The notes: generated by a model not told the origin, from the sequence alone. A stretch of 64,000 nt of DNA from an uncultured Syntrophaceae bacterium (GCA_964390545.1 CAYMJV010000003.1:127-64126); one strand, 5' to 3'; shown: positions 5,465 to 19,921, counted from the stretch's first letter. Numbers and translations: made by a program.

Positions 5465-5514
5465 CCAATCATTAGGCATATAGACATTGATCTGAAATCG
5501 TAACAAAAAATCGG

Positions 5515-5556
5515 CCTCTTCCCTGATAATTCAGTCTATCAGGGGAGAGGTTTTTT
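5515..5556 (+). terminator. Rho-independent terminator after SBP copy 2
   Basis: 14-bp stem CCTCTTCCCTGATA(5515-5528)/TATCAGGGGAGAGG(5537-5550) with one mismatch, 8-nt loop, then TTTTTT (5551-5556). Confidence 0.8.
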
Positions 5557-5605
5557 GTGCCGACATCGCCCATTTGTGTAAGGGGAGTCATAAGAGCATA
5601 AAGCA

Positions 5606-6532
5606 ATGCAGCGATATATCTCGAGACGTCTTATTCAGATGATGATCGCGCTGTTTTTGATGAGTGTGATTGTCTTTCTGCTAGGGAGATTGACCGGTGA
5701 TCCCGTATCGATGCTGTTGAGTCAATATAGTACAGAAGAAGACAGGGTCCGTATAACAGAACAACTTGGGCTGAACAAACCCGTTCTAGAACAATATGGC
5801 ATCTTTATGTTCAATGCGCTGAAAGGAGACCTCGGTAAATCGGTGGCCGGCGACAACCGGCCTGCACTTACCTTGATCCTGGAGAGGTTCCCTGCCTCCT
5901 TGAAACTAGCGTTGGTAGCACTGATCATAAGCATCCTCATTGGAATACCACTAGGAGTTCTGTCAGCTGTAAAAAGAGGGTCGTTTGTGGATGCATTAGC
6001 AAGGTTGTTAGCTTTGCTGGGACAGTCATTGCCGGCTTTTTGGCTTGGGATTGTCTTCATGTATTTCTTCAGTGTGAAACTTCGTTTGTTACCCACTTCC
6101 GGGTACGGAGGCATACGACATTTTATTTTGCCCGCGGCTACAATGGGCTTATTCACAGTGGCCGCTGTGACACGCTTGACCCGGTCAAGTATGTTGGAAG
6201 TTCTCGACAGCGAATACATAAAACTCGCCCGGATCAAGGGGGTATCAGAAGCGATCGTGATCTGGAAGCACGCCTTAAGAAACAGTCTGATGCCCGTCAT
6301 TACCTTTATGGGTACTTTTTTCGCGACGATGATTACTGGAGCCGTGGTGATTGAGACAGTTTTTTCGTGGCCTGGAATTGGTCGTCTCGCTTATGAATCA
6401 ATCTTAAACCGAGACTTTCCTGTGATGCAAGGAGTCATCCTATTTATGACGACGCTCTATATCCTGGCCAACCTCATCGTTGACGTCCTTTACGCTTGGG
6501 TTGATCCTCGTATCAGATACACGAATGAGTGA
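5606..6532 (+). CDS. ABC transporter permease (DppB/OppB-like)
   Basis: 308 aa, multi-TM. EAA-loop region EYIKLARIKGVSEAIVIWKHALRNSLMPVIT. Confidence 0.9.
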   Translation: MQRYISRRLIQMMIALFLMSVIVFLLGRLTGDPVSMLLSQYSTEEDRVRITEQLGLNKPVLEQYGIFMFNALKGDLGKSVAGDNRPALTLILERFPASLKLALVALIISILIGIPLGVLSAVKRGSFVDALARLLALLGQSLPAFWLGIVFMYFFSVKLRLLPTSGYGGIRHFILPAATMGLFTVAAVTRLTRSSMLEVLDSEYIKLARIKGVSEAIVIWKHALRNSLMPVITFMGTFFATMITGAVVIETVFSWPGIGRLAYESILNRDFPVMQGVILFMTTLYILANLIVDVLYAWVDPRIRYTNE

Positions 6533-6589
6533 AAGTTTGAAAGAGTGATGAGATTGATTCCTGCAAAGGGCGGTTGGGAAAATTGAAGT

Positions 6590-7432
6590 ATGCTTTTTAA
6601 TAAAGCAGTCGTTGCCATAGCGGTCTTTATATTGTTGGTCTTAGTGTTCACAGCCCTATTGGCCCCGTTTCTCGCTCCTTTTGATCCCAAGGTGGGTTCA
6701 TTAGGCGAGCGTTTAAAGCCGCCTTGCTGGCAGAACGGAGGAAGCAGGGCACACATTTTAGGCACTGACTTGCTAGGCAGGGATGTCCTGAGCAGACTCA
6801 TCTATGGTGCGAGAATTTCGTTGGCAGTATGTGTGCTCGCCATCGTTGTTGCTGGATGTATCGGTTCACTGTTAGGGATTGTCTCTGGTTATCTTGGGGG
6901 TTGGGTGGATACCATCATCATGAGGGTAGTCGACCTGGCGCTTTCCCTCCCGATCATCCTGCTCGCCCTGCTCTTCGGCGTCCTGTTTGGACCAAGTTTT
7001 TCTAATATTATTCTGATCATCAGCTTGGTGCTTTGGTCACAATATGCGAGGATGGCCAGAGGCGAAACATTGAAAATCAAAGGGAGAGATTACGTAGACT
7101 TGGCTAGAACGGCCGGGTGTTCTGATGCAAGCATCATGCTGAGGCACATCTTGCCGAACGTGGCGGGTTCTCTTATTATCCTGGCGACCCTCCAGGTGGG
7201 CACCGTGATTATCATTGAGTCATCCCTCAGTTTTCTGGGTGTTGGGATTCCACCCCCAACACCCTCGTGGGGTTCTATGATCGCCGAAGGCAGGTCGTAC
7301 GTTGTCTCTGCGTGGTGGCTCTGTATGATTCCAGGATTGGCCATTCTATTCACGGTCCTTTCAGTGAACGTCTTGGGTGATACCCTTACAGAGTTACTCA
7401 ATCCAGCCCTCCGGCGTGAGTACGTTACGTAA
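6590..7432 (+). CDS. ABC transporter permease (DppC/OppC-like)
   Basis: 280 aa, multi-TM. DYVDLARTAGCSDASIMLRHILPNVAGSLI. The upstream in-frame ATG at 6548 runs into a stop codon. Confidence 0.9.
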   Translation: MLFNKAVVAIAVFILLVLVFTALLAPFLAPFDPKVGSLGERLKPPCWQNGGSRAHILGTDLLGRDVLSRLIYGARISLAVCVLAIVVAGCIGSLLGIVSGYLGGWVDTIIMRVVDLALSLPIILLALLFGVLFGPSFSNIILIISLVLWSQYARMARGETLKIKGRDYVDLARTAGCSDASIMLRHILPNVAGSLIILATLQVGTVIIIESSLSFLGVGIPPPTPSWGSMIAEGRSYVVSAWWLCMIPGLAILFTVLSVNVLGDTLTELLNPALRREYVT

Positions 7433-7553
7433 TACAAACGCATTTTGCTCCATGACGAATCTGTAGGGCATGATCCCCGATCATGCCATCGGCGGTGCGT
7501 TCGGGGAACGCACCCTACAGATTATGTAAAATCGTTTATTGCGTTTGTTCATT
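7431..7553. repeat. MITE/REP-like nested inverted-repeat element
   Basis: Outer IR ACAAACGCA(7434-7442)/TGCGTTTGT(7540-7548). Middle IR AATCTGTAGGG(7458-7468)/CCCTACAGATT(7513-7523). Two inner perfect 9-bp hairpins: GGCATGATC-ccc-GATCATGCC and GGTGCGTTC-ggg-GAACGCACC. Confidence 0.7.
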
Positions 7554-7575
7554 GGGGCAGTGATGATCTGAGGCA

Positions 7576-8553
7576 GTGATGGGAACAAAGATCCTCGAGG
7601 TGATCGATCTTAAAACTCATTTTGTTGGTAAGCATTCCGTCGTCAAGGCGGTAGATGGCGTTAGCTTCTATGTAAATGACAATGAGACGTTGGGGATTGT
7701 GGGTGAATCAGGATGCGGGAAGACCATGACTTGTCTCTCCATCTTGAGACTTGTCCCTCAGCCTAAGAACCACAGGATCACCGGGAAAATATTATTCGAG
7801 GGCAAGGACATTTTGACGATGAGCAAGAGAGAGTTGCGAAAGCTTCGCGGACGAGAAATCTCCATGATCCTTCAGGACCCGATGATGTCCCTAAACCCGG
7901 TGTTTGCTATCGGTGATCAAATAAAAGAAGCGATCGTCACCCATGCCTATGAGAAAGATGGCTTAACTGCCAATGTGGTGGAAGTGTTAAGGCGGGTCAG
8001 AATTCCTTCACCGGAGATGCGCGTCAGAGATTATCCCCATCAAATGAGCGGCGGCATGAGGCAACGAGTGGTTGGAGCCATTGCCATATCCTGCCAGCCG
8101 CGTCTTCTCATTGCTGACGAGCCCACCACATCTCTTGATGTGACCATCCAGGCACAATACCTGCAACTCCTCAAGGATATTCAACGGGAGTTGGGCATGG
8201 CGCTCATCTTTATTACCCATGATTTTGGAATTGTGGCACACATGTGTGATCGGGTGTGCGTCATGTATGCCGGGGCCATGATAGAGAGCGCTCCGGTGAG
8301 AGACATTTTCAAAAGACCTGCACACTGGTACACGGCTGCTCTGATAGGGGGAGTTCCGAAATTGGGAATAAAGATAGACCGATTGATCTCCATCTCAGGT
8401 TACCCGCCCAAACTCGACCGATTGCCGACCGGATGCAGATTCTCTCCTCGTTGTGCCAATGCCAAAGAAAGATGCGTTCAGGAGGAACCTTCTCAGGTGG
8501 CAGTGGGGGAAGATCACCATGTAAGTTGCTGGTATCCACTGGAGCACCAATGA
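7576..8553 (+). CDS. ABC transporter ATP-binding protein (DppD/OppD-like)
   Basis: Walker A GESGCGKT, signature MSGGMRQRV, Walker [14 protein letters not shown]-terminal oligopeptide-transporter domain GCRFSPRC. Start is GTG 7576 or ATG 7579. Confidence 0.9.
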
Positions 8554-9521
8554 GCGAAGCTTATCTGGAGACTCGTGCCCTTAAGAAATACTTTCCTGTG
8601 ACAAGGGGGATTCTATTCGGGAAAGTAGCAGGTTGGGTAAAAGCGGTTGACGGTGTGGATTTGTCGATTGGAGTGGGAGAAACCCTGGGTCTTGTGGGAG
8701 AGTCCGGATGTGGGAAGACAACGGTGGCCAAACTCGTCCTTTTATTGGATAAGCCAAACGAAGGCTCTATTCTATTTAACGGTAAGGATTTGAAAGAGTT
8801 CAATAGAGAAGACCTTGAGCAGTTTCGGAAGTGCGTGCAACCTGTTTTTCAAAACCCGTTTTCCTCCCTTGACCCAAGGATGAAAGTAGGAAGCATCATC
8901 AGTGAGCCGATTTCGGTGGATAGCGCTCTTGACAAAAAAGAGATCGGGAATCGGGTTGCAACTGTACTGGAGGCAACAGGACTCGATCCAAGCGATGCCA
9001 GGAAATATCCCCACGAATTCAGTGGGGGACAAAGGCAGAGGATAGCCATTGCCAGGGCCCTGGCTTCTGACCCACGACTGATCATCCTCGATGAGCCGGT
9101 CTCCTCTCAAGACATCTCTATTCGAGCTCAAATTTTGAATCTCCTCAAGGACCTCCAGAAGAGGCTTGGGATAAGTTATCTCTTCATCGCCCATGATCTG
9201 GCTACCGTGAGGTATATGAGTACCCGAATCAGTGTAATGTACCTTGGGAGGATTGTTGAAACTGCAGCAAGTGACGATTTATGCTCAAATCCGTTACATT
9301 CCTATACGAAGGCGCTATTCTCCGCGTGCCTCCCCGATGATCCTGATGCAATACGTGGAGAATGTGTCATTTCAGGAGAGGTGCCCAGTCCCCTGAATCC
9401 TCCCAGTGGGTGTCGGTTTCATACCCGATGTTCCAATACGAGGCAAATCTGTTCTGAAACCGAACCCACACTGAAAGAGGTTGCTCCTGGTCACTATGTG
9501 GCATGTCTGCGCTACGAATGA
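8550..9521 (+). CDS. ABC transporter ATP-binding protein (DppF/OppF-like)
   Basis: Start chosen at the ATGA overlap with the upstream stop ([17 protein letters not shown]). Walker [39 protein letters not shown]. The track ORF from 8256 is an out-of-frame overlap artefact. Confidence 0.9.
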   Translation: MSEAYLETRALKKYFPVTRGILFGKVAGWVKAVDGVDLSIGVGETLGLVGESGCGKTTVAKLVLLLDKPNEGSILFNGKDLKEFNREDLEQFRKCVQPVFQNPFSSLDPRMKVGSIISEPISVDSALDKKEIGNRVATVLEATGLDPSDARKYPHEFSGGQRQRIAIARALASDPRLIILDEPVSSQDISIRAQILNLLKDLQKRLGISYLFIAHDLATVRYMSTRISVMYLGRIVETAASDDLCSNPLHSYTKALFSACLPDDPDAIRGECVISGEVPSPLNPPSGCRFHTRCSNTRQICSETEPTLKEVAPGHYVACLRYE

Positions 9522-9584: not shown

Positions 9585-10715
9585 ATGGGAAATAGCAGCG
9601 ATAAGGAAATATTGTTCTATGCGGTTGGAGATGTCGCTCCCTGCAGGGAAGATCCCGCCTCTATCTTCAAAAATGTGACCCGTACACTGGGCCAAGCTGA
9701 TACGACATTTTGCCAGCTTGAAATTAATATCTCTGAAAGAGGGACTCGCCTGCCGCAGGCAAGGCATACGACACGGGCCAATCCAAAGACAGCCCGAGCC
9801 ATCAAGGAGGCTGGTATTCGTGTGGTTTCGTTCGCTGGCAATCACTGTATGGACTGGGGACAAGAAGCCTTTTTTGATACCATCGAGGCTTTGAAAGGGG
9901 AGAGGATTTCAGTCATAGGGGTTGGCAAGAATATTGAAGAAGCTCGCAAGCCAGCTATCCTTGAGTCTAAAGGCAGTCGAGTGGCATTTCTGGCTTACAA
10001 CACGATCCTGCCCATGGGATATTGGGCCGATGCTAACAGGCCAGGCTGCGCCCCGATGAGAGCATGGACCTTGTATGAACAGATCGAGCACGACCAACCC
10101 GGCACACCTTGCCGGATCCACACCTTCCCCAACAGGGAAGACCTCGAAGCGATGAGTGAGGATATTAAAAAGGCCAAGACGCAGGCAGATGTTGTCATCT
10201 TGTCAATGCACTGGGGTATTCATTTTATACCTGCTGTACTGGCAACTTATCAAAGAGACATGGCCCATGTCGCTATTGATTCTGGAGCAGACTTAATCTT
10301 AGGCCATCACGCTCACATATTGAAAGGCATTGAAATCTATCAAGGGAAAGCGATCTTCTATAGCCTCTGTAATTTCGCAGTGGACCTTCCCTTTACGAAG
10401 GAACATGCCGAAAGCAAAAGCTTCAAGGAAATACAGAAGCTCAACCCGGATTGGATCCCAGACTTTGAATGCCTCTATAATTTTCCGACGGATTCCCAAA
10501 AGACGATTATTGTGAAATGTATCATTTCCAACGGCACAATAAAAAGCGTCTCTTTCCTGCCCACCTATGTCGACAAAAAGACGGCTGAGCCGGAGATTCT
10601 CACTTCAAAGGATAAACGGTTCGGGGAGGTCGTCAGGTACATGGAAGAAGTGACAAGGAATGAGGGGGTTGATACGAAATACGACATCAACGGAGATGAG
10701 GTGGTCCTGTTATAA
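9585..10715 (+). CDS. CapA/PGA_cap-family (metallophosphatase-fold) protein
   Basis: 376 aa. FAGNHCMDWG, VAFLAYN, SMHWG and LGHHAH blocks are typical of the CapA family. Confidence 0.7.
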   Translation: MGNSSDKEILFYAVGDVAPCREDPASIFKNVTRTLGQADTTFCQLEINISERGTRLPQARHTTRANPKTARAIKEAGIRVVSFAGNHCMDWGQEAFFDTIEALKGERISVIGVGKNIEEARKPAILESKGSRVAFLAYNTILPMGYWADANRPGCAPMRAWTLYEQIEHDQPGTPCRIHTFPNREDLEAMSEDIKKAKTQADVVILSMHWGIHFIPAVLATYQRDMAHVAIDSGADLILGHHAHILKGIEIYQGKAIFYSLCNFAVDLPFTKEHAESKSFKEIQKLNPDWIPDFECLYNFPTDSQKTIIVKCIISNGTIKSVSFLPTYVDKKTAEPEILTSKDKRFGEVVRYMEEVTRNEGVDTKYDINGDEVVLL

Positions 10716-10921: not shown

Positions 10922-12298
10922 GTGAATGAATCTTTAACCCTGGCCAAGAATATCGTTGACACCGACTATGATGATATCCCCAGGGAAGTTGCAGCGGTGA
11001 CGAAAAAGAGTCTTTTAGATGCCATCGGTGTCATATTAGCTGCAGGCAAGCTGGGTGAGGGGTGCAAACAGTTTGTCACCTTGGCGATCGAGCAGGGTGG
11101 AAAAAAGGAAAGCACAATCCTTGGTTTCGATGCTAAGGTACCGGCGTGCATGGCGGCATTTGCTAACGGTTCGATGTCCCACGCCTTGGATTTTGAGGAT
11201 ACTCATGATAGGGCACTTGTTCATCCGAACGCAGCAGCCATACCTGCTGCCCTTGCAATAGCTGAAAGTCTAGGAAACGTGAGCGGCAAAGATTTCATTG
11301 CCGCGCTCACCCTTGGAAGTGACCTGGTTGCAAGGTTGGGTCTTGCTGTTAAAGAGAATGCGGTTGAGTACGGCTGGTATATGCCACCGATCTTGGAAGC
11401 TTTTGGAGCAACGACCGCTGGCGGCAAGTTGTTAAAGCTCGATGCGGAACAGATACGAAATGCTTTTTCGTTAACCCTGTGTCAGGCAACCTGCAGTGCC
11501 GAATTGATCTATAGTTCTAATTCAATGATCAGAGCCATTCGAGATGCTTTTTCGGCAAAGGCGGGCCTGCTATCGGCACTTCTTGCGCAAAAAGGTATTA
11601 CAGGGTTTGAGCACCCCTTTGAAGGGAGGGCAGGACTGTTCAATATTTATTCAAGAGGTAAATGGGATCCGCTCTCACTAACGAACGGGCTTGGAAAAAT
11701 CTTTGAGGGTGCTCACGTCAGCTTCAAACCATGGCCGAGTTGCAGGGGCACCCATGCTTATATCGATGCAACACTTCAAATCTTGGAGAAGCATCATCTA
11801 AAACCAAGTGAGATAAAGGAAATTCGTTTGACCGTCAGCCCCGTGAACAAAATGCTTTGTGAACCCTTAGAAAATAAAATGAATCCCGTCACAGCCATCG
11901 AGGCTAAGTTCAGTTTACCCTTTACTGTTGCCACAGCGGTCGTGCACGGGAAAGTAACTTTAGATCATTTTAATCCGCGCGCCTTATCCGATCCGATGGT
12001 CCTTGAGTTGGCTCGGAGAGTTTTATATCGAGTGGATGAAAAACTGAGCCTGCGGCAGGCGACGCAAGGCTCCCTGCAGATAGAGGCTAAGAACGGAAGG
12101 ACCTATTCGAAAAGCTTAGAATTTGCTTGTGGGCATCCGGATAACCCTATGAGTGATGAGGCAGTTGTATCTAAATTCATGGATTGCGCCAAATATTCAG
12201 CAAAAAAGTTTTCTAAGAGGACTTTAAATAAGATCGTGGCGCTAGCCTTGAACCTGGAAGAAATCAAGGACATGTCTGAGTTCACGAAATACCTATAG
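10922..12298 (+). CDS. MmgE/PrpD-family protein (2-methylcitrate dehydratase superfamily)
   Basis: 458 aa with a GTG start. Family-typical N-terminus (DYDDIPREVAAVTKKSLLDAIGVILAAG), SHALDFEDTH, and SFKPWPSCRGTHAYIDA. Confidence 0.85.
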   Translation: MNESLTLAKNIVDTDYDDIPREVAAVTKKSLLDAIGVILAAGKLGEGCKQFVTLAIEQGGKKESTILGFDAKVPACMAAFANGSMSHALDFEDTHDRALVHPNAAAIPAALAIAESLGNVSGKDFIAALTLGSDLVARLGLAVKENAVEYGWYMPPILEAFGATTAGGKLLKLDAEQIRNAFSLTLCQATCSAELIYSSNSMIRAIRDAFSAKAGLLSALLAQKGITGFEHPFEGRAGLFNIYSRGKWDPLSLTNGLGKIFEGAHVSFKPWPSCRGTHAYIDATLQILEKHHLKPSEIKEIRLTVSPVNKMLCEPLENKMNPVTAIEAKFSLPFTVATAVVHGKVTLDHFNPRALSDPMVLELARRVLYRVDEKLSLRQATQGSLQIEAKNGRTYSKSLEFACGHPDNPMSDEAVVSKFMDCAKYSAKKFSKRTLNKIVALALNLEEIKDMSEFTKYL

Positions 12299-12514: not shown

Positions 12515-13657
12515 ATGGGTATTTCTCAGATGGAACTATTCAAACCCTTTCATGATGTCGTTCAGGATCGGCACCGGTATGCGAAAGACTGGAAGGCCAA
12601 AACCGGCGGTAAGGTCATCGGCTATTTTTGCACCTATGTGCCTGAGGAGATCATTTATGCCGCAGGCATGCTTCCTGTGAGGATCGTAGGCAACAATGAA
12701 TCACAAACGATCACCGACGAATATTGCTCTCGGAATAAGTGGTGTCCCTTTAGTCGTAACTGCTTGGCTGAGGGGCTCCGGGGACATTACGATTACCTCG
12801 ATGGCTTGGTCATCGGGGCTTCCTGTTTTCATACCCAGGAGGTTTTCTCGGCCTGGGTGAAACATATTCCTGTCCCCTTCTGGCACTATTTATTTGTTCC
12901 CGGCTGTATTCAGAGCAGATCGGCGGACGCGTGTCTCACGGGGGAATTTGAGGAATTCAAGAGTGCACTTGAGACGTGGAACGGCAAGACCATCACGGTA
13001 GATGCATTAGACAGATCGATCGGAACCTATAACGGGAACCGTCAATTGATGAAAGAATTGTATGCATTCAGAAAGAATGAACCACCCCTGCTCTCAGGGA
13101 CAGAGGCTATGGAAACGGTATTGGCGAGCCAGCTCATGGATAAAGGTGAGCATAATGAGATCATGAGACCGGTGATTGCTGATCTGCCCGGCCAAAAGAA
13201 TAGGATAAGCCCCGGGATCAGATTAATGATCTTAGGCAGCGAGAACAACGACATTGAGCTCTTAAGGGCCATAGAATCATGGGGTGCAAACATCGTCATT
13301 GATGATCATTGTGTAGGGAGCAGATATTTCTGGGGCGAGATTATCCCTGGAGAAGACCGGCTTCGAGCCATGGCCAACCGATATGTTCAAAGACCCCCGT
13401 GTCCTGCCAAGGATTTCCCGGAGAGACGGCGCTTACCTCATGTGCTCCGTCTCGCAAAGGAGTACAATATTCAGGCCGCTGTTATCGTATTGCAGAAGTT
13501 CTGCGAGCCTCATCAATTTGATACGCCGAGTATTGAGTCTGCACTGAACAAACTGAATATTCCGACTGTGGTTGTAGAGATAGATGCCCCTATCTCTTTG
13601 GGACAAGTTCGCATCAGGATAGAATCCCTTCTCGATATGATACGAATCGAAACATGA
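12515..13657 (+). CDS. BcrC/BadD/HgdB-family subunit (2-hydroxyacyl-CoA dehydratase / benzoyl-CoA reductase superfamily), pair 1
   Basis: 381 aa from ATG 12515. The track ORF start at 12359 runs through the REP element. GYFCTYVPEEIIYAAGMLP and VLQKFCEPHQFD motifs. Confidence 0.8.
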   Translation: MGISQMELFKPFHDVVQDRHRYAKDWKAKTGGKVIGYFCTYVPEEIIYAAGMLPVRIVGNNESQTITDEYCSRNKWCPFSRNCLAEGLRGHYDYLDGLVIGASCFHTQEVFSAWVKHIPVPFWHYLFVPGCIQSRSADACLTGEFEEFKSALETWNGKTITVDALDRSIGTYNGNRQLMKELYAFRKNEPPLLSGTEAMETVLASQLMDKGEHNEIMRPVIADLPGQKNRISPGIRLMILGSENNDIELLRAIESWGANIVIDDHCVGSRYFWGEIIPGEDRLRAMANRYVQRPPCPAKDFPERRRLPHVLRLAKEYNIQAAVIVLQKFCEPHQFDTPSIESALNKLNIPTVVVEIDAPISLGQVRIRIESLLDMIRIET

Positions 13658-13823
13658 CAGATGTCATAAGGGTCTCTGTCCCGAACCAAGAGGACCACAG
13701 GTTCTAGCCGTGGGCGGATTGGTCCTCTGGTACGGGATGTTCGCCCCTTATGGGCGTCTCTTGGGAACCACGGACTTTTCCCGTGGGGCTCCATCCATAG
13801 TAGAGGGTGCTGTGGTGGGAAAT

Positions 13824-15128
13824 ATGAAGAAATATAAAACAAAAAGACTTGATTGCTGGCCCATGATGAAAGAATTGCGCAGGGCCCATTTCAAGCATAC
13901 CTGGGAAGCACGGGACAAGGGTGATTTGGTTGTGATGGGTATCTTCGAATGGTTTCTTGCGCTGTGTGCAGGATTTGGGGATTATGCAAACCCTTCGTAT
14001 GGGCCTTACTATACCCAGATGCTGCGTGATAAGGAGAAAGCCCTTAAGTGTTTCGAAGTCGCCGAGGCAAAAGGGTTCCGGCGGGATATTTGTGCCTCCA
14101 TGCGATGCCACCTTGGGCAGTTGTATATGGGTTTAACGCAGCGAGGACCTAAGGGAGAGATCGTGAAACCTGATTTTATTCTTCAACCGGCAGCGTGTTA
14201 TTCCATGAGTAAGACCGGCCAGATCGTGAGCGAGGAACTTCAGGTCCCCTATCTCAACCTCGAATTTCCCACGAAAGATACGAAAAACACGCGGGCCTAT
14301 CTCCTGACCGAAATGGAAGAGGCCATTGACTGGATGGAGAAGAAAACAGGAAGACCGTTCAGCGATGAGAAATTCATTGAGGCGGTTCAGAACGAGTGGG
14401 AATGTATGGTGCTTTGGGCCAAGACATGTGAACTCAACAAAGCGATCCCTGCTCCGCTGGACTACAGGCAAATGTGGTCCCTCAGGATCCCTAGTATCAC
14501 GTCCAGATATAAGAACGACACAGTCAAATTCTATCAGATACTCTTAGAAGAGGTGAAGGATAGGGTAGCCAATGAGATTTCGGCAAACGCGTATGAGACA
14601 GCCCGGCTATTCCATCAATTCCTGCCGCCTTTTTATGGGCTGGACATCTTCAAAGCGCCTTTGAAGTATGGCGCATCGTTCATCGGGGGAGACGGAGTAT
14701 TTTCGTCTATGGGAGCCTGGGTGATTCATGGCGACGGCACTTGGGAGGCTGCCAAGACGCCTCTTGATCGAGGCATTGAACTTCAAGATAGAGAAGACGC
14801 GCTGGAGGCACTGGCGGACCTCTATCTTGGTTACTTACCTGCTTCGAGGTGTACCACGTCGGCAAACCCAAAAGAAGTTATAAAAATGGTGCAGGACTGG
14901 CACGTCGACGGCGTTGTGCTGATGATTGACCGTGGATGCAAAACCTTATCTGCAGGACAGGAAGAGCAAATTGTGGAGCTGAAGGAAGCAGGAATACCGA
15001 GGATGGTCTATGAAGGCAGTCACGCTGATTTTAGGGATTTCGATGAAGGGACAACCTTACGTCGATTCGATCTATTCCTGGAAAATTTAGGTTTAACGAA
15101 ACTAGAGGGAATAAAGAAGGAGAAATGA
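13824..15128 (+). CDS. BcrB/BadE/HgdA-family subunit, pair 1
   Basis: 434 aa from ATG 13824 (MKKYKTKRLDCWP..). DICASMRCHLG, and a C-terminal DRGCKTLSAGQ..YEGSHADFRDF that resembles the BcrB C-terminal region as I recall it. Confidence 0.75.
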   Translation: MKKYKTKRLDCWPMMKELRRAHFKHTWEARDKGDLVVMGIFEWFLALCAGFGDYANPSYGPYYTQMLRDKEKALKCFEVAEAKGFRRDICASMRCHLGQLYMGLTQRGPKGEIVKPDFILQPAACYSMSKTGQIVSEELQVPYLNLEFPTKDTKNTRAYLLTEMEEAIDWMEKKTGRPFSDEKFIEAVQNEWECMVLWAKTCELNKAIPAPLDYRQMWSLRIPSITSRYKNDTVKFYQILLEEVKDRVANEISANAYETARLFHQFLPPFYGLDIFKAPLKYGASFIGGDGVFSSMGAWVIHGDGTWEAAKTPLDRGIELQDREDALEALADLYLGYLPASRCTTSANPKEVIKMVQDWHVDGVVLMIDRGCKTLSAGQEEQIVELKEAGIPRMVYEGSHADFRDFDEGTTLRRFDLFLENLGLTKLEGIKKEK

Positions 15129-16379
15129 ATGCTCGACAGCTCAAAGACTAATACGAAGATCGAAGGCTTGCTGAGTGGCATTAGGGCGATTGAGTGGGCA
15201 ACGTTTGGTAATGGGCCCATTATTGGTGTCATCCTGGGAGACCTGGGAGCCGAGGTCATCAAATTAGAAGATCGCGTTGCTGGAGATCCTTCCCGTGGCA
15301 TCTCGGCCTTTCAAGGGGTGGGAACGAAGAGCCCCGAAGGAATCAACCTGGTATTTGAGAGTAGTAACCGAAATAAAAAAAGTATGCGAGTGGATTTGAA
15401 CAAAGAAAAAGGGAGAGAAATCATTCATAGACTTGTGGGAAAATCGGATATCTTTTATACCAATTATCGAAAGAGCGTCGCCAAACGGCAGCGGATGGAT
15501 TATGAGACCCTTTCGAAATACAATCCCATGCTGATCTATGGGAGAGCCTCGGGATTAGGACCGGAGGGGCCCGAAAATGAAAAACGTGCTTTTGATCCGG
15601 TTGGCCTTGCGCGCTCAGGCCTGATGAGTGCCGCCGGGGAGCGTGAAAGCCCTCCCGGGCAGATCGTAGGAGCAATCGTTGATACCATGGGTGCAACCAT
15701 GGCTGCCTTTGGGATCGTCGGTGCATTGTTTGCCAGGGAACGCTTCAACATCGGTCAAGAGGTCGATGCCTCGTTACTTGGGGCCGGTATGTGGGCCCAG
15801 TTTAGTAATATATCCCTTACTCTATTACGTGGCCGAACCATGGCAAGACACTCCAGAGCAAGGGCGAGGAATCCCTTGGCAAACGTCTATCAGTGTAAGG
15901 ATGGCGAGTGGTTGTCATTGGCCGAGCCACAGTCTGATAGGTACTGGCCTCAATTCTGCAAAGTGATGGGTATCGAGTCTCTGGAAAAGGATCCGAGGTT
16001 CTCTGACGAATGGAAAAGAAGGGATCATTGTGAAGAGTTCGTTTCGATTTTAGACAAGATCTTTGCTGAGAAGACCCGAGCGGAATGGGCTGAAATTTTT
16101 CGGAGACAAGGCAAACAATTTGTTGCTTGGGAATGTGTCCAGACTATTCCAGACCTCGTTCATGACCCACAGGTCATAGCAAACCGCTACCTTGTTGATT
16201 TTGACCATCCTGTTCTTGGCAACATTAAGGTTCAACCCTTCCCAATAGGGTTTAGCAAATCACCTGTTGGACCTAGAAGCCACGCACCTGAATTCGGCCA
16301 GCATACTGAAGAAGTTCTCTTAGAGATAGGGTACACCTGGGATGATATCACCCGGCTTCAGGATGAAGAGGTGATTTGA
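15129..16379 (+). CDS. family III CoA-transferase (CaiB/BaiF/Frc type)
   Basis: 416 aa. The ATG directly abuts the preceding TGA. GPIIGVILGDLGAEVIKLEDRVAGDPSR signature N-terminus. Confidence 0.9.
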   Translation: MLDSSKTNTKIEGLLSGIRAIEWATFGNGPIIGVILGDLGAEVIKLEDRVAGDPSRGISAFQGVGTKSPEGINLVFESSNRNKKSMRVDLNKEKGREIIHRLVGKSDIFYTNYRKSVAKRQRMDYETLSKYNPMLIYGRASGLGPEGPENEKRAFDPVGLARSGLMSAAGERESPPGQIVGAIVDTMGATMAAFGIVGALFARERFNIGQEVDASLLGAGMWAQFSNISLTLLRGRTMARHSRARARNPLANVYQCKDGEWLSLAEPQSDRYWPQFCKVMGIESLEKDPRFSDEWKRRDHCEEFVSILDKIFAEKTRAEWAEIFRRQGKQFVAWECVQTIPDLVHDPQVIANRYLVDFDHPVLGNIKVQPFPIGFSKSPVGPRSHAPEFGQHTEEVLLEIGYTWDDITRLQDEEVI

Positions 16380-16409
16380 AGTTTACAATCAGTTAGCCGG
16401 AGGTAAGAG

Positions 16410-17609
16410 ATGGTTCTCAAAGGCATACGCGTGGTAGATTCGACAAGATGGGCTTTCGGCCCTTATGCTGCCACCTGTCTGGCGGATATGGGTGCAGAAG
16501 TCATCAAGGTGGAGGATCCTGTTTCAGGTGATGGTTCAAGATATGTCCATAAGACCCGTGAGCTTTCCATGGCGGCCAGCAACCCCATGTTTGATCTCCT
16601 CAACAGGGGCAAGAGGGGTTTTGCCGTAAGCCTCGACAAGGAGAAAGGCAGGGAAGTGTTCAGCCGGTTAATCAAGACTGCGGATGTTTTCATGACGGCG
16701 CAGCGCCCCCATTCTCTCAAAAAACTGGGGATCGACTACGAAACGCTTAGGGCGATTAACCCGCGCCTGATCTATGCGGTCTGTGGGGCCTTCGGAGAGA
16801 AGGGACCCCAGGCTGACAAGCCTGCCTGGGACGGTTCTGCCTTCGCCCGGTCAGGGCTCATGTACATCATGCAAGATAAGCAGGGTTGTCCGCTTCCGCC
16901 CCCGCAGGGTATGGGTGATCTTGTTGCCTCCGTCACCATGGCCTATGGGATCATGACGGCTTTGTTCCATCGTGAGAGAACAGGCCAAGGCCAGAAGGTG
17001 GATGTCTCCCTCCTCGGCACAATGGTGACGGTCATGGAGGCCCTCTGCATGCAGATTACCCTTTCAACCGGTACCGATTTTCCGCAGTTCGATAGCAGCC
17101 ATCCTACGAATCCACTGAACCATACCTATCGGACAAAAGACGGAAGATGGCTCTTATTAAATATGCACCATACCGATCCGTTCTGGCATACCTTCTGCGA
17201 GACCGTTGGGATCACTGAGTTCGAACATGATAAGCGCTTCAGCAAACATGAAGCACTCTGTGATCATTCTCGTGACATGGTGGCCATTCTTCAAGAAGTT
17301 TTTGCCCAGAAAGAGCTGTCCGAGTGGGTCAAGATCCTCGGGAAAACTGACATGGTCTGGGCCCCGGTTCAGACCTTACAGGAAGCACACAACGACCCGC
17401 AGGTCGTAGAAAATGAGTTTGTCGCATCCGGTGACGATGCTGAAGGATTACCGAAAACCGTTGGATTTCCTCTGAAACTGAGCGGGGTGTCCCTCAAGAG
17501 TAATTACACGGCTCCCCAATTGGGTCAACATACGGAGGAAATACTTCTTGAGTTAGGGTTTAGCTGGAAAGAGATTGAACATCTTAAAGATGAGCGAGTG
17601 ATCATTTGA
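16410..17609 (+). CDS. family III CoA-transferase
   Basis: 399 aa. GPYAATCLADMGAEVIKVEDPVSGDGSR. GGAGG RBS. Confidence 0.9.
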   Translation: MVLKGIRVVDSTRWAFGPYAATCLADMGAEVIKVEDPVSGDGSRYVHKTRELSMAASNPMFDLLNRGKRGFAVSLDKEKGREVFSRLIKTADVFMTAQRPHSLKKLGIDYETLRAINPRLIYAVCGAFGEKGPQADKPAWDGSAFARSGLMYIMQDKQGCPLPPPQGMGDLVASVTMAYGIMTALFHRERTGQGQKVDVSLLGTMVTVMEALCMQITLSTGTDFPQFDSSHPTNPLNHTYRTKDGRWLLLNMHHTDPFWHTFCETVGITEFEHDKRFSKHEALCDHSRDMVAILQEVFAQKELSEWVKILGKTDMVWAPVQTLQEAHNDPQVVENEFVASGDDAEGLPKTVGFPLKLSGVSLKSNYTAPQLGQHTEEILLELGFSWKEIEHLKDERVII

Positions 17610-17719
17610 ATGGAACCCGACGGGTTAAAGGCCCGGGTTTTCTCCACACGCTTTGAAGGGCAGGGCCCTCCGATGCCTTCCCCACTGCGCACCTAATGAG
17701 CTTCTAGGGTTTCCCCGCT

Positions 17720-18829
17720 ATGAGCAAAGCCCAACTTCTGGAGGAGCGCCAAACCAGGGTTCTCAAGGCTATTGCCCTTGAAAAACCTGATCGAACTCCA
17801 GTTGTCTTGGAATATGCTGGGTTCGCGGCTAAGGTAACCAACACACCAATGCCCGAATTTCTAGGTTCGCTCTCTAAGTCTGTCGATGTGATGATCAAGG
17901 CCTTCCATATCGTTGGAGATGGAGATGGGATTGATTATGGTTCATATTCCCCATATTCTCTCGCTTATGGTTGGATGTCCAAGGTGAAACTCCCTGGAGT
18001 TGAATTACCTGACGACGTCATGTATCAGGTTGCCGAAGCTGAACTCATGAAGACCGAGGACTATGATCGCATTCTGCACCAGGGTTGGCGTGACTTCTAT
18101 CGCCTTTTTATGCGGGAGCGGGTTCTGAACGACGTGCCGCCGGAGCGCCTGCCTTCGGCCCAACCCTTCATGGACGTCCGTGCCGCATGGGCCTCCCAGG
18201 GCATTCCGGTTCTGAGCGGTGGCACGGTGAGCCTGCCCTTCGAGCTGCTCTGCGGAGCACGTTCCTTGAACAGTTTCTTCATTGATCTCATGACCATGCC
18301 GGACAAAATCCAGGAAGTCATGGATGCTATGATGCCCCACCTCGTTGGTCATATCTGTAAAAAGGCCAAGACAGAAGGTTATCCCGCCGTTTGGATTGGT
18401 GGCTGGCGGTCAGCAAGTAACATGATTTCACGCCCTCTGTGGGAGCGTTTTGTCTGGCCCTATTTTGAAAAGGCGGTCGACGAGGTTGTCAACTCAGGAC
18501 TCATTGCTCTTCTGCATCTCGATTCAGATTGGACACGCGATTTAGGTTTTTTTAGATCCCTGCCCAAGGCCAAGTGTATCGTGGCTACTGATGGTCAAAC
18601 CGATCTGTTTAAGGCTAAAGAGATCCTAAGCGGCCACATTTGCCTTATGGGCGATGTGTCGGCGACGATGTTAGCCTTTGGCACGCCTGACGAGGTCTAT
18701 GAGTACAGTATCAAACTAATCAAGGAACTGGGTCCCGAAGGCTTCATCCTTCATTCTGGATGCGATATCCCCACGGACGCCAGACTTCCCAATGTTCAGG
18801 CAATGGTGGCGGCAGCCACAGGCAGATAG
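17720..18829 (+). CDS. uroporphyrinogen decarboxylase (URO-D)-family protein
   Basis: 369 aa. N-terminal LLEERQTRVLKAIALEKPDRTPV and C-terminal FILHSGCDIP blocks are typical of the URO-D/MtaA fold. The HxC zinc motif of MT2 methyltransferases is not seen (HLDSD). Confidence 0.65.
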   Translation: MSKAQLLEERQTRVLKAIALEKPDRTPVVLEYAGFAAKVTNTPMPEFLGSLSKSVDVMIKAFHIVGDGDGIDYGSYSPYSLAYGWMSKVKLPGVELPDDVMYQVAEAELMKTEDYDRILHQGWRDFYRLFMRERVLNDVPPERLPSAQPFMDVRAAWASQGIPVLSGGTVSLPFELLCGARSLNSFFIDLMTMPDKIQEVMDAMMPHLVGHICKKAKTEGYPAVWIGGWRSASNMISRPLWERFVWPYFEKAVDEVVNSGLIALLHLDSDWTRDLGFFRSLPKAKCIVATDGQTDLFKAKEILSGHICLMGDVSATMLAFGTPDEVYEYSIKLIKELGPEGFILHSGCDIPTDARLPNVQAMVAAATGR

Positions 18830-18949: not shown

Positions 18950-19921
18950 ATGATTGAAGAGGTCGGAACCCATCTGTACAGGATCGAAATTCCTCTTCCG
19001 AGGAATCCTCTGAGAGCTCTGAACTCCTATGCGATCAAGAGCCCAGAGCGAAATTTAATTATTGATACAGGGTGGAATCAACAAGAATGTATGGATGCCA
19101 TGCAAGCAGGGTTGAAGGAACTTGAAATCGATATCAGGAAGACAGACTTTTTTATTACGCATCTCCATACCGATCATCTCGGACTCGTCTCAAACCTTGT
19201 CACAGATACGTCGACGATTTACTTTAATCAGCCAGAGGCTGACCGGATTCAGTCTGGCGTCGTCCTGGATGATCTTATGAACTTTGTTCGCTTGAATGGT
19301 TTCCCGGAAAAAGAACTTCAGGGGATCCCTCATACCCATCCCGGTTTTAAGTTTAGATCAAAAGGACCGTTAAGTTTCCATATTTTGAAAGAAGGCGACA
19401 CGCTTCGTGTCTCAGATTACGTGTTCCGCTGTGTTGAAACGCCAGGTCATTCAAAGGGCCATATGTGTCTCTATGAGCCGGACAAGAAGATCTTGGTGGC
19501 TGGAGATCATATTCTTAGGGATATAACGCCCACCATCTCATTATTAGATGGTGACTGGAATCCTTTGAAGGAGTATCTGGAAAGCCTCGACAAGGTATAT
19601 CAACTCGATATTGAACTGGTATTACCGGGCCATGGGGAGGTTTTCAGGAACCCTAAAGAGAGAATTCAGGAATTGAAAGATCATCACCAAAAGAGGCTGG
19701 ATGAGATTATTGCTATTTTAAAAAAAGGCAAGATGAATGCTTTCCAAGTAGCGTCCCAGATGACTTGGGATATTACGTATGATTCTTGGGATCTATTTCC
19801 TGTTTCGCAAAAATGGTTTGCCACCGGGGAGGCGATTTCCCACCTGAAATACCTTGAGGAAAAAGGGGCAGTTCGCAAGGAAATGCGGCAACACAAGAGA
19901 ATTTACTTATTGAATTCCTGA
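18950..19921 (+). CDS. MBL-fold metallo-hydrolase
   Basis: 323 aa. HxHxDH motif (THLHTDHLG), TPGHSKGH, GDHIL, LPGHG. Confidence 0.85.
   Translation: MIEEVGTHLYRIEIPLPRNPLRALNSYAIKSPERNLIIDTGWNQQECMDAMQAGLKELEIDIRKTDFFITHLHTDHLGLVSNLVTDTSTIYFNQPEADRIQSGVVLDDLMNFVRLNGFPEKELQGIPHTHPGFKFRSKGPLSFHILKEGDTLRVSDYVFRCVETPGHSKGHMCLYEPDKKILVAGDHILRDITPTISLLDGDWNPLKEYLESLDKVYQLDIELVLPGHGEVFRNPKERIQELKDHHQKRLDEIIAILKKGKMNAFQVASQMTWDITYDSWDLFPVSQKWFATGEAISHLKYLEEKGAVRKEMRQHKRIYLLNS

What the first reader, a model, noticed from the sequence alone, without database searches (positions are those of the whole stretch)
12515..17609. BcrC/BcrB-like pair directly coupled to two family III CoA-transferases, with no ATPase activator
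Two subunits of 381 and 434 aa belong to the 2-hydroxyacyl-CoA dehydratase / class I benzoyl-CoA reductase superfamily. They occur in the bcrC-bcrB order and size pattern.

Every characterised member needs an ATP-dependent electron-injecting partner. These partners are BcrA/BcrD, HgdC, HadI or FldI, all of the BadF/BadG/BcrA/BcrD ATPase family. Here the position where bcrA/bcrD would follow is occupied by a family III CoA-transferase whose ATG (15129) abuts the TGA (15126-15128). A second CoA-transferase follows.

None of the 53 CDS in the window looks like an activator ATPase, even though the window carries two such pairs.

The had/fld operons of clostridia also couple a family III CoA-transferase to a dehydratase, but they include an activator. 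A paired transferase recalls BbsE/BbsF.

Two readings are possible. The activator may be supplied in trans, or the module may be reduced in some other way. The second would be mechanistically novel.
Basis: partly seen in the sequence, partly recalled or inferred. Interest (0 to 1): 0.65.

Follow-up and report, generated by a model that had tools for sequence, protein, structure and literature searches.

The report
Bzd-like Fe-S enzyme pair, CoA-transferases, no ATPase
A conserved four-gene operon joins the two catalytic subunits of a benzoyl-CoA-reductase-like iron-sulfur enzyme, with a rebuilt active site, to a pair of CoA-transferases instead of the usual ATP-driven electron pump. It is an uncharacterised variant of a known enzyme family, and its energy supply is probably encoded elsewhere in the genome.

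Summary
Genes at 12515(12530)-13657 and 13824-15128 are the closest relatives of BzdN and BzdO, the catalytic subunits of Azoarcus-type class I benzoyl-CoA reductase (PDB 8s02, E 9e-104 and 6e-77). Two family III CoA-transferases follow, the first with its ATG abutting the TGA. No BcrAD/BadFG-type ATPase occurs in any of the six frames of the 64 kb window.

The N-O-CoAT-CoAT order recurs in six lineages (65-99% O-subunit identity), never with an ATPase within the 10 kb or less of flank available.

It is not a benzoyl-CoA reductase. The N subunit keeps all six Cys ligands of the [8Fe-9S] cluster, and the O subunit keeps its three [4Fe-4S] Cys. However, O has lost the catalytic Glu65 and His131 and the thioester-binding Tyr97, Gln274 and Tyr298. 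Both subunits score below the NCBIfam bzdN/bzdO cut-offs.

A more distant relative (L026) has a homologous transporter, N, O and both CoA-transferase types plus two ATPase genes. Supply of the ATPase in trans is therefore the likeliest reading, but no whole genome could be searched. An ATPase-independent enzyme is not excluded.

This is a new variant of a known kind. The substrate is unknown and the interest is moderate.

The parts
12515..13657 (+). BzdN-like electron-storage subunit (N-like). The probable true start is ATG 12530, giving 375 aa.
   Evidence: PF06050 E 4.7e-76. Best PDB hit is BzdN 8s02_B, E 9.3e-104. All six [8Fe-9S] Cys ligands (BzdN C36/73/100/263/293/327) and R53, R267, R290 and H330 are conserved (residue list from PMC11971306). 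TIGR03190 gives 366.6 bits against a cut-off of 453.8. The start codon is inferred from the alignment with L013, L014 and L017.
13824..15128 (+). BzdO-like substrate-binding subunit (O-like) with a remodelled active site.
   Evidence: PF06050 E 1.7e-38. Best PDB hit is BzdO 8s02_A, E 5.7e-77. It keeps C95/C128/C380 and Trp46. Glu65 is absent, and there are the substitutions H131M, Y97S, Q274L, Y298G, L302S and E381K. An extra invariant Glu42 sits next to the Trp. TIGR03191 gives 272.5 bits against a cut-off of 448.6.
15129..16379 (+). Family III CoA-transferase subunit 1 (CoAT_1). Its ATG abuts the stop codon of the O-like gene.
   Evidence: PF02515 E 4.4e-99. The catalytic Asp (D185) aligns with the active-site Asp of its solved relatives. 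Of the two benzylsuccinate CoA-transferase chains, it matches 9fn0_B better (1.6e-35 against 2.5e-23 for chain A).
16410..17609 (+). Family III CoA-transferase subunit 2 (CoAT_2).
   Evidence: PF02515 E 2.6e-108. It is 38.6% identical to CoAT_1 and keeps the catalytic Asp D170. It matches 9fn0_A better than 9fn0_B (4e-33 against 3.2e-25). It is syntenic with CoAT_1 in all related loci.
17621..17635 (+). Terminator-like hairpin 12 nt after the CoAT_2 stop. It may mark the end of the operon.
   Evidence: Consensus scan only. This is weak evidence, because the number of such sites in the region is no higher than in shuffled sequence.
9585..10715 (+). PGA_cap (CapA-family) protein, a recurrent neighbour of the module.
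   Evidence: PF09587 E 1.7e-66. It lies next to N/O/CoAT genes in L013-L018, L023, L024, L006 and L025. It has weak similarity to the metal-dependent epimerase MslH (NF038314, 100.6 bits against a cut-off of 700).
10922..12298 (+). MmgE/PrpD-family protein, a recurrent neighbour.
   Evidence: PF03972 and PF19305. It lies directly upstream of N-like in close relatives and is also present in L006. It scores far below the PrpD equivalog cut-offs.
1498..2061 (+). TetR regulator with a TetR_C_24 C-terminal domain, the candidate regulator of the cluster.
   Evidence: Pfam. Homologous TetR_C_24 genes sit directly upstream of N-like in L003, L004, L011 and L025, and upstream of the transporter genes in L005.
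2101..9521 (+). Opp-type ABC importer: two SBP_bac_5 binding proteins, two permeases and two ATPases. It is the presumed substrate uptake system.
   Evidence: Pfam. SBP5 homologues precede N-like in L005 and L020. In L026 the SBP5 is 51% identical. Other relatives use TRAP or Liv-type transporters instead.
17720..18829 (+). URO-D-like protein. It is syntenic downstream in close relatives.
   Evidence: PF01208 E 1.8e-22 over the C-terminal half only. It is syntenic in L013, L014 and L016. A URO-D gene also lies near the ATPase-less N/O pair of L008.
18950..19921 (+). Metallo-beta-lactamase-fold hydrolase, a recurrent neighbour.
   Evidence: PF00753. A homologue 47% identical follows the two CoA-transferases in L025 and L012.

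Best explanation
The four genes form a self-contained catabolic module for an imported carboxylic acid that has not been identified.

Step 1, inferred from family and synteny. CoAT_1 and CoAT_2 form a two-subunit family III CoA-transferase, as in benzylsuccinate CoA-transferase BbsEF. It loads the acid onto CoA, using succinyl-CoA or the pathway's own product thioester as donor.

Step 2, shown at sequence level. The thioester is handled by a Bzd-type heterodimer. The N subunit carries a double-cubane [8Fe-9S] cluster for electron storage and transfer. The O subunit carries a three-Cys [4Fe-4S] cluster with an open iron site.

Step 3, shown. The O active site is not that of benzoyl-CoA reductase. 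The Glu65/His131 proton-donor pair and the Tyr97/Gln274/Tyr298 thioester clamp are gone, and a new invariant Glu42 sits beside the conserved Trp. The chemistry is therefore a different low-potential radical reaction on a substrate other than benzoyl-CoA.

Step 4, inferred. The low-potential electron is injected by a BzdPQ/HgdC-type ATPase encoded elsewhere and probably shared among several N/O paralogues.

I rate a redox-neutral, electron-recycling reaction (dehydration or elimination, following the FldABC logic) and a stoichiometric two-electron reduction as about equally likely. I lean slightly to the first, because the ATPase, the ferredoxin and the ferredoxin reductase are all missing in cis.
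For: Homology and cluster ligands: with the residue roles taken from PMC11971306.

Active-site replacement. It is identical across the clade (window, L003-L006, P0121-P0135). In contrast, the partners with BzdPQ next door (L009, L010, Aromatoleum) keep the canonical residues.

Family thresholds. Both subunits score below the NCBIfam bzdN/bzdO cut-offs.

Synteny. The order N-O-CoAT_1-CoAT_2 is found in six lineages at 65-99% O identity, mostly with a TetR- or MarR-family regulator and an uptake system alongside.

Transferases. Both keep the catalytic Asp and show a reciprocal best-match pattern to the two BbsEF chains.

Support for an ATPase in trans.
- L026 carries an SBP5 51% identical, a CoAT_1-like gene (45.5%), N (44%), O (39%), then two BcrAD_BadFG genes, then a CoAT_2-like gene (36.6%).
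- In a rough NJ tree the L026 lineage is sister to the radiation that contains the window clade.
- The window N and O keep 77% and 78% of the positions that are invariant among ATPase-linked relatives.
- ATPase-less N/O pairs often come two per locus (window, L006, L025/L012).
- Fuchs et al. state that BzdPQ and BzdNO probably form only a transient complex (PMC11971306).

Support for low electron demand.
- Canonical clusters carry PQ plus ferredoxin plus a large oxidoreductase in cis, whereas this module has none of them.
- Dehydratases recycle the electron, so their ATPase acts only as an activator (PMC7317905).
Against: No ATPase was found in 64 kb of window, nor within up to 10 kb on either side of about a dozen related loci. 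Supply in trans is therefore assumed, not observed.

No complete genome of a clade member could be searched.

Retention of the full [8Fe-9S] cluster, which is thought to accumulate two or more electrons, fits a reductase better than a dehydratase. Known dehydratases have reduced this site to [4Fe-5S].

The L026 O subunit has yet another active-site signature, so it may act on a different substrate with a different energy requirement.

Physical or functional coupling of the transferases to N/O rests on synteny alone.
Confidence: 0.55

Rival explanations
1. The enzyme is truly independent of any ATPase. The N/O pair works without an archerase in one of three ways: its substrate is reducible by ordinary reduced ferredoxin, it runs physiologically in the oxidative (for example aromatising) direction, or it catalyses a radical isomerisation or elimination that stays primed.
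For: Isolated BzdNO, without BzdPQ and without ATP, catalyses the viologen-dependent re-aromatisation of dienoyl-CoA (PMC11971306).

Absence of an ATPase in cis is the rule, not the exception, across the non-canonical radiation: window pairs 1 and 2, L003, L005, L006 (two pairs), L008, L025 (two pairs), L027 and L028.

The proton-donor pair needed for the energetically extreme Birch step is gone.
Against: Every characterised member of the superfamily uses an ASKHA-type ATPase (PMC7317905). The homologous L026 system retains two ATPase genes. Conservation of the cluster environment argues that the electron-input route is unchanged. Absence from flanks of 10 kb or less is weak evidence about a whole genome.
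Confidence: 0.2
2. It is an ordinary Bzd-type benzoyl-CoA reductase whose bzdPQ genes simply lie elsewhere, and the CoA-transferases make benzoyl-CoA from benzoate.
For: The best database and PDB matches are BzdN and BzdO. JGI annotation of homologues reads 'benzoyl-CoA reductase subunit B/C'.
Against: The catalytic Glu65 and His131 and the residues that contact the benzoyl thioester and ring (Tyr97, Gln274, Tyr298, Leu302) are all replaced, and the replacement is the same throughout the clade. Scores are 87 and 176 bits below the NCBIfam equivalog cut-offs. Identity to BzdO is only about 36%. No dienoyl-CoA hydratase, ferredoxin or BzdV-type partners are adjacent.
Confidence: 0.04
3. The adjacency has no functional meaning. 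The CoA-transferases serve another pathway of this CoA-transferase-rich island, and the N/O pair is an unrelated or decaying paralogue.
For: The window holds five family III CoA-transferases and many acyl-CoA enzymes, so some adjacency would arise by chance.
Against: The exact order N-O-CoAT_1-CoAT_2, with orthologous transferases, holds in six lineages whose flanks differ. The stop and start codons abut. All nine Cys ligands and about 77% of family-invariant positions are retained, so the pair is not decaying.
Confidence: 0.06

Closest known systems
BzdNOPQ, the Azoarcus/Aromatoleum-type class I benzoyl-CoA reductase (structure of BzdNO: PDB 8s02; PMC11971306)
   Same: Gene order N then O. 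Subunit sizes. The six-Cys [8Fe-9S] site with its Arg and His second sphere in N. The three-Cys [4Fe-4S] site and the Trp46 equivalent in O. It is the best sequence match in PDB and NCBIfam.
   Different: No bzdP or bzdQ, no ferredoxin and no BzdV-type reductase in cis. O lacks Glu65, His131, Tyr97, Gln274, Tyr298 and Leu302. Both subunits score below the equivalog cut-offs. Two CoA-transferases occupy the position of bzdPQ.
Phenyllactate dehydratase FldABC with activator FldI from Clostridium sporogenes, and the related Had, Hgd and Lcd 2-hydroxyacyl-CoA dehydratases
   Same: A family III CoA-transferase is genetically coupled to a PF06050 heterodimer, which is the Fld logic of recycling CoA between product and substrate (from my knowledge of the family, not tested here). 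The electron-recycling chemistry needs the ATPase only as an activator (PMC7317905).
   Different: Sequence relatedness is much weaker (HadB 96 bits and HadC 179 bits against cut-offs of 750 and 700). The small subunit here is a six-Cys double-cubane type, not [4Fe-5S]. There are two transferase subunits rather than one. No activator gene is adjacent.
Succinyl-CoA:(R)-benzylsuccinate CoA-transferase BbsEF (PDB 9fn0)
   Same: Two paralogous family III subunits are encoded side by side. CoAT_1 matches chain B best and CoAT_2 matches chain A best.
   Different: The relationship is distant (E 1e-33 to 1e-35), and SUGCT and formyl-CoA-transferase-like proteins score higher. Both subunits here keep the catalytic Asp. 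The genomic partner is an Fe-S radical enzyme, not a beta-oxidation set.
L026 cluster (contig CAYWZO010000005.1, assembly GCA_964462865.1), uncharacterised
   Same: Homologous SBP5/Opp importer, CoAT_1-like and CoAT_2-like genes and an N/O pair with a non-canonical O active site.
   Different: It has two BcrAD_BadFG ATPase genes between O and the second transferase. Its O signature differs from that of the window clade.
Double-cubane cluster protein DCCP with its reductase DCCP-R (PDB 6eno, 7yyl)
   Same: The six-Cys double-cubane motif in the N-like subunit.
   Different: DCCP is a homodimer with no CoA channel and has its ATPase gene adjacent. NF040772 gives 166.6 bits against a cut-off of 350.

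Membership tests
BCR-I/HAD superfamily (Pfam PF06050, HGD-D) | Both subunits match PF06050 above the gathering score. | tested here: met
   257 and 133.6 bits against a cut-off of 28.4.
Bzd-type class I benzoyl-CoA reductase (BzdNOPQ) | The N subunit has six Cys ligands for the [8Fe-9S] cluster (C36/73/100/263/293/327). | tested here: met
   All six are conserved, as are R53, R267, R290 and H330 (residue list from PMC11971306).
Bzd-type class I benzoyl-CoA reductase (BzdNOPQ) | The O subunit has three Cys ligands for the aqua-[4Fe-4S] cluster (C95/128/380). | tested here: met
   All three are conserved.
Bzd-type class I benzoyl-CoA reductase (BzdNOPQ) | The O subunit has the catalytic Glu65 and His131 and the benzoyl-thioester binding residues Tyr97, Gln274 and Tyr298. 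| tested here: not met
   Glu65 is absent, and there are the substitutions H131M, Y97S, Q274L and Y298G. The pattern is identical in 15 or more clade members, while the canonical residues are present in the PQ-linked L009, L010 and Aromatoleum proteins.
Bzd-type class I benzoyl-CoA reductase (BzdNOPQ) | Scores reach the NCBIfam equivalog cut-offs TIGR03190 (bzdN) and TIGR03191 (bzdO). | tested here: not met
   366.6 against 453.8 bits, and 272.5 against 448.6 bits.
Bzd-type class I benzoyl-CoA reductase (BzdNOPQ) | ATPase subunits BzdP and BzdQ (PF01869) are encoded with N and O, together with a ferredoxin. | tested here: not met
   None in the window by Pfam or by the six-frame custom HMM, and none in related loci. 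They are present in L009 and L010. Their presence elsewhere in the genome could not be tested.
2-hydroxyacyl-CoA dehydratases (Hgd, Had, Fld, Lcd) | Close sequence relationship to a characterised alpha/beta pair. | tested here: not met
   HadB 96 bits and HadC 179.3 bits against cut-offs of 750 and 700. PDB 3o3m gives E 6.5e-19 and 3e-42, far weaker than BzdO and BzdN.
2-hydroxyacyl-CoA dehydratases (Hgd, Had, Fld, Lcd) | A dedicated activator gene (HgdC, HadI or FldI) lies in the operon. | tested here: not met
2-hydroxyacyl-CoA dehydratases (Hgd, Had, Fld, Lcd) | Dehydration of an (R)-2-hydroxyacyl-CoA through a ketyl radical. | not testable with these tools
   Needs enzymology.
Double-cubane cluster proteins (DCCP) | NF040772 equivalog score; homodimer with an adjacent reductase gene. 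| tested here: not met
   166.6 bits (N) and 56.7 bits (O) against a cut-off of 350. The pair here is heteromeric.
Family III CoA-transferases (PF02515) | Full-length PF02515 match and a conserved catalytic Asp. | tested here: met
   332.5 and 362.9 bits. D185 and D170 align with the Asp in the equivalent 'vamtD' motif of the best-matching solved homologues.
Two-subunit family III CoA-transferases (BbsEF type) | The two paralogous subunits form a heteromer. | tested here: inconclusive
   Strict co-occurrence and fixed order in all loci, and a reciprocal best match to the two 9fn0 chains.

The most novel reading that the evidence does not exclude
A branch of Bzd-type [8Fe-9S]/[4Fe-4S] radical enzymes has dispensed with the ATP-hydrolysing electron pump altogether. 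It is fed directly by a dedicated two-subunit CoA-transferase and carries out low-potential radical chemistry, or its reverse, using only ordinary cellular reductants. This would be the first ATPase-independent member of the BCR-I/HAD superfamily.
Probability: 0.18. Interest if true: 0.85.

Novelty: new variant of a known kind. Interest (0 to 1): 0.55.

Why it matters
[quoted passage not shown] Only a handful of their substrates are known.

This module defines a conserved and rare sub-family. The pattern scan, which detects only fairly close relatives of the O subunit, found it in 2 of 185,579 species-representative genomes. The electron-storage subunit is intact, the catalytic pocket has been rebuilt, and the ATPase genes are replaced in the operon by CoA-transferases.

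It belongs to a wider radiation of BzdO-like proteins. Of 71 full-length cluster representatives (clusters at 50% identity), 49 lack the canonical Glu65/Tyr97/His131 triad, and none of the 49 has been studied.

Characterising the module would yield either a new radical reaction on a CoA thioester with a shared, modular ATPase, or an exception to the rule that the ATPase is obligatory. It also shows that annotation as 'benzoyl-CoA reductase subunit B/C' over-predicts anaerobic aromatic degradation in metagenomes.

Tried and rejected
1. Finding the source genome. Exact-protein look-ups returned only 1.5-3.2 kb Logan contigs from ERR3804376. A genome-wide search for an activator was therefore impossible.

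2. Riboswitch or RNA clue to the substrate. Rfam at the E-value threshold over 9000-19000 gave only chance-level hits.

3. Candidate TetR operator. The perfect palindrome at 12408-12428 occurs once in the window and in no related locus except the identical L001. It lies in a strain-specific insertion, so it is not a conserved operator.

4. Promoter and terminator scans. Counts were no higher than in shuffled sequence. Only the hairpin after CoAT_2 is mentioned, as weak evidence.

5. Profile search of the representative library with alignment A1.

6. Literature. Four searches for ATPase-less Bzd/Bcr-like pairs coupled to CoA-transferases found no description.

7. Filing the pair as true BzdNO, as a Had/Fld dehydratase or as DCCP. 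All three were rejected on the membership tests.

8. The idea that the CoA-transferases functionally replace BzdPQ as electron donors. This was rejected because both match only PF02515, which covers them almost end to end, and no redox or nucleotide-binding Pfam domain was found.

9. Structure prediction was not run. Sequence matches to 8s02 are already decisive for the fold, and the tool returns no coordinates from which to measure active-site geometry.

Full report
**1. The observation**

The + strand carries four consecutive genes:
- 12515-13657, PF06050/HGD-D, E 4.7e-76
- 13824-15128, PF06050, E 1.7e-38
- 15129-16379, PF02515 family III CoA-transferase, E 4.4e-99
- 16410-17609, PF02515, E 2.6e-108

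The TGA of the second gene (15126-15128) is followed directly by the ATG of the third, with an AAGGAG ribosome-binding site upstream. A second HGD-D pair lies at 59979-62280.

I scanned 51 ORFs with Pfam: 50 of at least 150 aa on the + strand and the amidohydrolase ORF on the - strand. The remaining overlapping antisense ORFs were covered only by the six-frame search below. None matched PF01869.

I then built an HMM from five BzdP, BzdQ and activator proteins taken from loci L009 and L010. I searched it against every six-frame segment of at least 40 aa. It scored 410-458 bits on its own sources, and its best hit in the window had E = 1.6. No ferredoxin-type Cys motif occurs apart from the one in the glycyl-radical activase.

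Two details need adjusting:
- In close relatives the first gene starts at the position equivalent to ATG 12530 (MELFKPF..., 375 aa).
- The pair is of the bzdN-bzdO type rather than the Thauera bcrC-bcrB type.

**2. What the two Fe-S subunits are**

The best solved relatives are BzdN (8s02_B, E 9.3e-104) and BzdO (8s02_A, E 5.7e-77). These are far better matches than 2-hydroxyisocaproyl-CoA dehydratase, MbdNO or the double-cubane protein DCCP.

The structure paper for BzdNO (Fuchs et al. 2025, PMC11971306) names the functional residues.
- BzdN binds an [8Fe-9S] double cubane through Cys36/73/100/263/293/327, with Arg53, Arg267, Arg290 and His330 around it.
- BzdO binds an aqua-[4Fe-4S] cluster through Cys95/128/380.
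- Glu65 and His131 act as acid/base catalysts.
- Tyr97, Gln274 and Tyr298 bind the thioester oxygen.
- Trp46, Leu302 and Leu383 line the benzoyl pocket.

In a MAFFT alignment, the window N-like protein keeps all six Cys and all four second-sphere residues. The O-like protein keeps the three Cys and the Trp. Otherwise it differs: there is no residue at Glu65, and it carries H131M, Y97S, Q274L, Y298G, L302S and E381K. It also has an extra, invariant Glu (Glu42) immediately before the Trp.

The same signature is found in every clade member examined: L003-L006 and P0121-P0135, at 62-94% identity. In contrast, the O subunits that have bzdPQ next door (L009, L010, Aromatoleum) keep the full canonical set.

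NCBIfam agrees. The scores are 366.6 bits against a cut-off of 453.8 for bzdN, and 272.5 against 448.6 for bzdO. HadB, HadC and the double_cubane model score far lower. Identity to Aromatoleum BzdN and BzdO is about 43% and 36%.

Conclusion: this is a Bzd-type scaffold with an intact electron-storage subunit and a rebuilt substrate site. It is not a benzoyl-CoA reductase.

**3. The module is conserved, and so is the missing ATPase**

Homologues of the N-like protein fall from 94-64% identity (P0001-P0006) straight to about 55% or below.

I recovered gene contexts by exact look-up, by a genome scan (2 loci among 185,579 species representatives) and by a metagenome scan (12 loci). I mapped them with phmmer against the window proteins. 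The order N, O, CoAT_1, CoAT_2 appears in six lineages:

| Lineage (loci) | O identity to window | Context |
|---|---|---|
| L013-L019, L023, L024 | 93-99% | Window type |
| L005, L020 | 83% | AMP-ligase, TetR, Liv ABC transporter and SBP5 upstream |
| L003, L004, L011 (Deltaproteobacteria MAG JAFGNJ01) | 79% | TetR directly upstream |
| L012, L025 | 73-75% | PGA_cap, TetR, then N-O-CoAT-CoAT, MBL, TRAP, and a second N'-O'-CoAT |
| L021 | 67% | Short contig |
| L006, L007 | 65% | MarR, N-O-CoAT_1, PGA_cap, CoAT_2, N'-O'-CoAT, MmgE/PrpD |

None of these loci has an ATPase within the available flanks. The neighbours that recur are a TetR_C_24 regulator, an uptake system (Opp/SBP5, Liv or TRAP), PGA_cap, MmgE/PrpD and an MBL-fold hydrolase.

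More distant N/O pairs with yet other O signatures also lack ATPases: L008, L027 and L028.

**4. A relative that does have the ATPases**

L026 (P0173; contig CAYWZO010000005.1, assembly GCA_964462865.1) encodes the following, in order:
- a glycyl-radical enzyme
- a CoAT_1-like gene (45.5% identical)
- an SBP5 (51% identical to the window SBP5) with an Opp-type importer
- N (44%) and O (39%)
- two BcrAD_BadFG genes
- a CoAT_2-like gene (36.6%)

In a rough NJ tree of O subunits, the L026 group is sister to the large radiation that contains the window clade, and the canonical BzdO clade lies outside both. The same kind of system therefore exists with its electron pump in cis, and the state without the ATPase genes appears to be derived.

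The window N and O keep 77% and 78% of the positions that are invariant among four ATPase-linked relatives. Nothing suggests relaxed constraint.

**5. The CoA-transferases**

CoAT_1 and CoAT_2 are paralogues, 38.6% identical. Both keep the catalytic Asp.

Their best solved relatives are SUGCT and formyl-CoA-transferase-like enzymes that act on dicarboxylates. Against the two chains of benzylsuccinate CoA-transferase they show a reciprocal preference: CoAT_1 matches 9fn0_B best and CoAT_2 matches 9fn0_A best. This fits a BbsEF-like heteromer but does not prove it.

**6. How it most likely works**

Shown at sequence level:
- a double-cubane N subunit
- a three-Cys open-site [4Fe-4S] O subunit with a pocket that is not the benzoyl-CoA pocket
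- two catalytically competent transferase subunits fixed in the same operon
- no ATPase, ferredoxin or ferredoxin reductase in cis

Inferred:
- An imported acid is converted to its CoA thioester by the transferase pair.
- The N/O pair then transforms it by one-electron radical chemistry.
- The priming electron comes from a BzdPQ/HgdC-type ATPase encoded elsewhere.

The last inference rests on three points: L026; the statement that BzdPQ and BzdNO probably form only a transient complex (PMC11971306); and the frequent occurrence of two or more ATPase-less N/O paralogues per locus, which a shared ATPase would explain economically.

The reaction itself could be redox-neutral or a stoichiometric reduction.
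[quoted passage not shown] The absence of the whole electron-supply chain and the loss of the proton-donor pair favour this option.
- Retention of the [8Fe-9S] cluster and the two-gene ATPase of L026 favour a stoichiometric reduction.

I leave this at roughly even odds.

**7. Rivals**

An enzyme that is truly independent of any ATPase cannot be excluded. Isolated BzdNO catalyses the reverse (aromatising) reaction without ATP, and absence of the ATPase in cis is pervasive across the radiation. I give this about 0.2.

A genuine benzoyl-CoA reductase, and chance adjacency of the transferases, are both unlikely for the reasons given above.

**8. Comparison with what is known, and novelty**

The module works like a hybrid. 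It has the Bzd-type scaffold and cluster set, and the Fld-type genetic logic of a family III transferase fused into a radical-enzyme operon. It fails defining features of BzdNOPQ, of the Had/Fld dehydratases and of DCCP (see the membership table).

A search of 1.84 billion cluster representatives (clusters at 50% identity) found only 95 with E of 1e-30 or better to the O subunit. I aligned the 71 full-length sequences among the best-scoring representatives. Twenty-two carry the Glu65/Tyr97/His131 triad and 49 do not. The window clade is therefore one branch of a sizeable radiation of unstudied proteins.

Four literature searches found no description of such a module.

Verdict: a new variant of a known kind. 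Interest is 0.55, rising to about 0.85 if ATPase independence were demonstrated.

**9. Limits**

- No whole genome could be searched, so 'in trans' against 'none' is unresolved.
- The substrate is unknown.
- The tree is a distance tree without support values.
- Coupling of the transferases to N/O rests on synteny.

Noticed in passing
window 12299-12517 (palindrome at 12408-12428): A roughly 216-bp insertion lies between the MmgE/PrpD stop codon and the N-like start. It carries a perfect 9-3-9 palindrome, ATGCTGAAC-TTG-GTTCAGCAT. It is absent from metagenome contigs L013, L014 and L017, whose O-like protein is 93-99% identical to the window's and where the two genes are 11 nt apart. It is present only in the identical Logan contig L001. 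It could be a strain-specific promoter or operator, or a small mobile element.
   Followed up: partly
window 13658-13823: The 166-bp spacer between N and O contains an inverted repeat (13689-13697 and 13720-13728). The spacer is shared by L015, L016 and L018, is different in L013 and L014, and is almost absent in L017. This makes it an indel hot-spot inside an otherwise tightly packed operon.
   Followed up: partly
window 59979-61058 and 61060-62280: A second PF06050 pair, also without an ATPase. N2 keeps all six double-cubane Cys (H330 is replaced by Ser) and O2 keeps three Cys. It is much more distant from BzdNO (E 9e-41 and 4e-13). It sits after an AMP-ligase, an acetyl-CoA hydrolase/transferase-family gene and an acyl-CoA dehydrogenase, and before a minus-strand amidohydrolase. 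These neighbours recall the thn (tetrahydronaphthoyl-CoA) operon listed in PMC6849830.
   Followed up: partly
window 39216-42567; L026 1-1208: A glycyl-radical enzyme (798 aa) with its activase. Its closest solved relatives are B12-independent glycerol and diol dehydratases (E 9e-130 and 9e-129). The ATPase-bearing relative L026 also has a glycyl-radical enzyme next to its N/O cluster (38% identical over the C-terminal 400 aa).
   Followed up: partly
window 15129-28167: Five family III CoA-transferase genes lie within 13 kb (starts at 15129, 16410, 22953, 24195 and 27058). Only the first two are close paralogues (38.6% identical); the others are 27-31% identical to each other and to the first two.
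   Followed up: yes
window 9585-10715: The only NCBIfam hit of the PGA_cap protein is the metal-dependent C-alpha epimerase MslH (100.6 bits, far below the cut-off of 700). Together with the MmgE/PrpD protein, this suggests a stereochemical preparation step for a carboxylic-acid substrate.
   Followed up: no
window 29655-39127: A run of AtuA, two carboxyltransferases, a biotin carboxylase, a fused ACP_syn_III/OB-fold (DUF35-like) protein and a thiolase. AtuA-like 'acyl-CoA:acetate lyase' genes are listed in the naphthalene thn operon (PMC6849830). L008 carries a similar ACP_syn_III/OB-fold protein and thiolase pair, and a URO-D gene, near its ATPase-less N/O genes.
   Followed up: no
window 62466-62984: A 172-aa ORF matches only part of the acyl-CoA dehydrogenase C-terminal domain (profile positions 8-77 of 150). 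It overlaps the 3' end of the minus-strand amidohydrolase gene and is probably a gene remnant.
   Followed up: no
window 25383-26343: This 961-bp stretch has no long gene. It holds one 146-aa TTG-start ORF (25503-25943) that was not analysed with any tool.
   Followed up: no
L027 1-21302: A BzdO-like and BzdN-like pair in the reversed order (O then N) and without an ATPase. It lies among three OYE-like flavoenzymes (Oxidored_FMN plus Pyr_redox_2), an aldehyde:ferredoxin oxidoreductase and two family III CoA-transferases. The gene content suggests an aryl-CoA reduction cluster.
   Followed up: no
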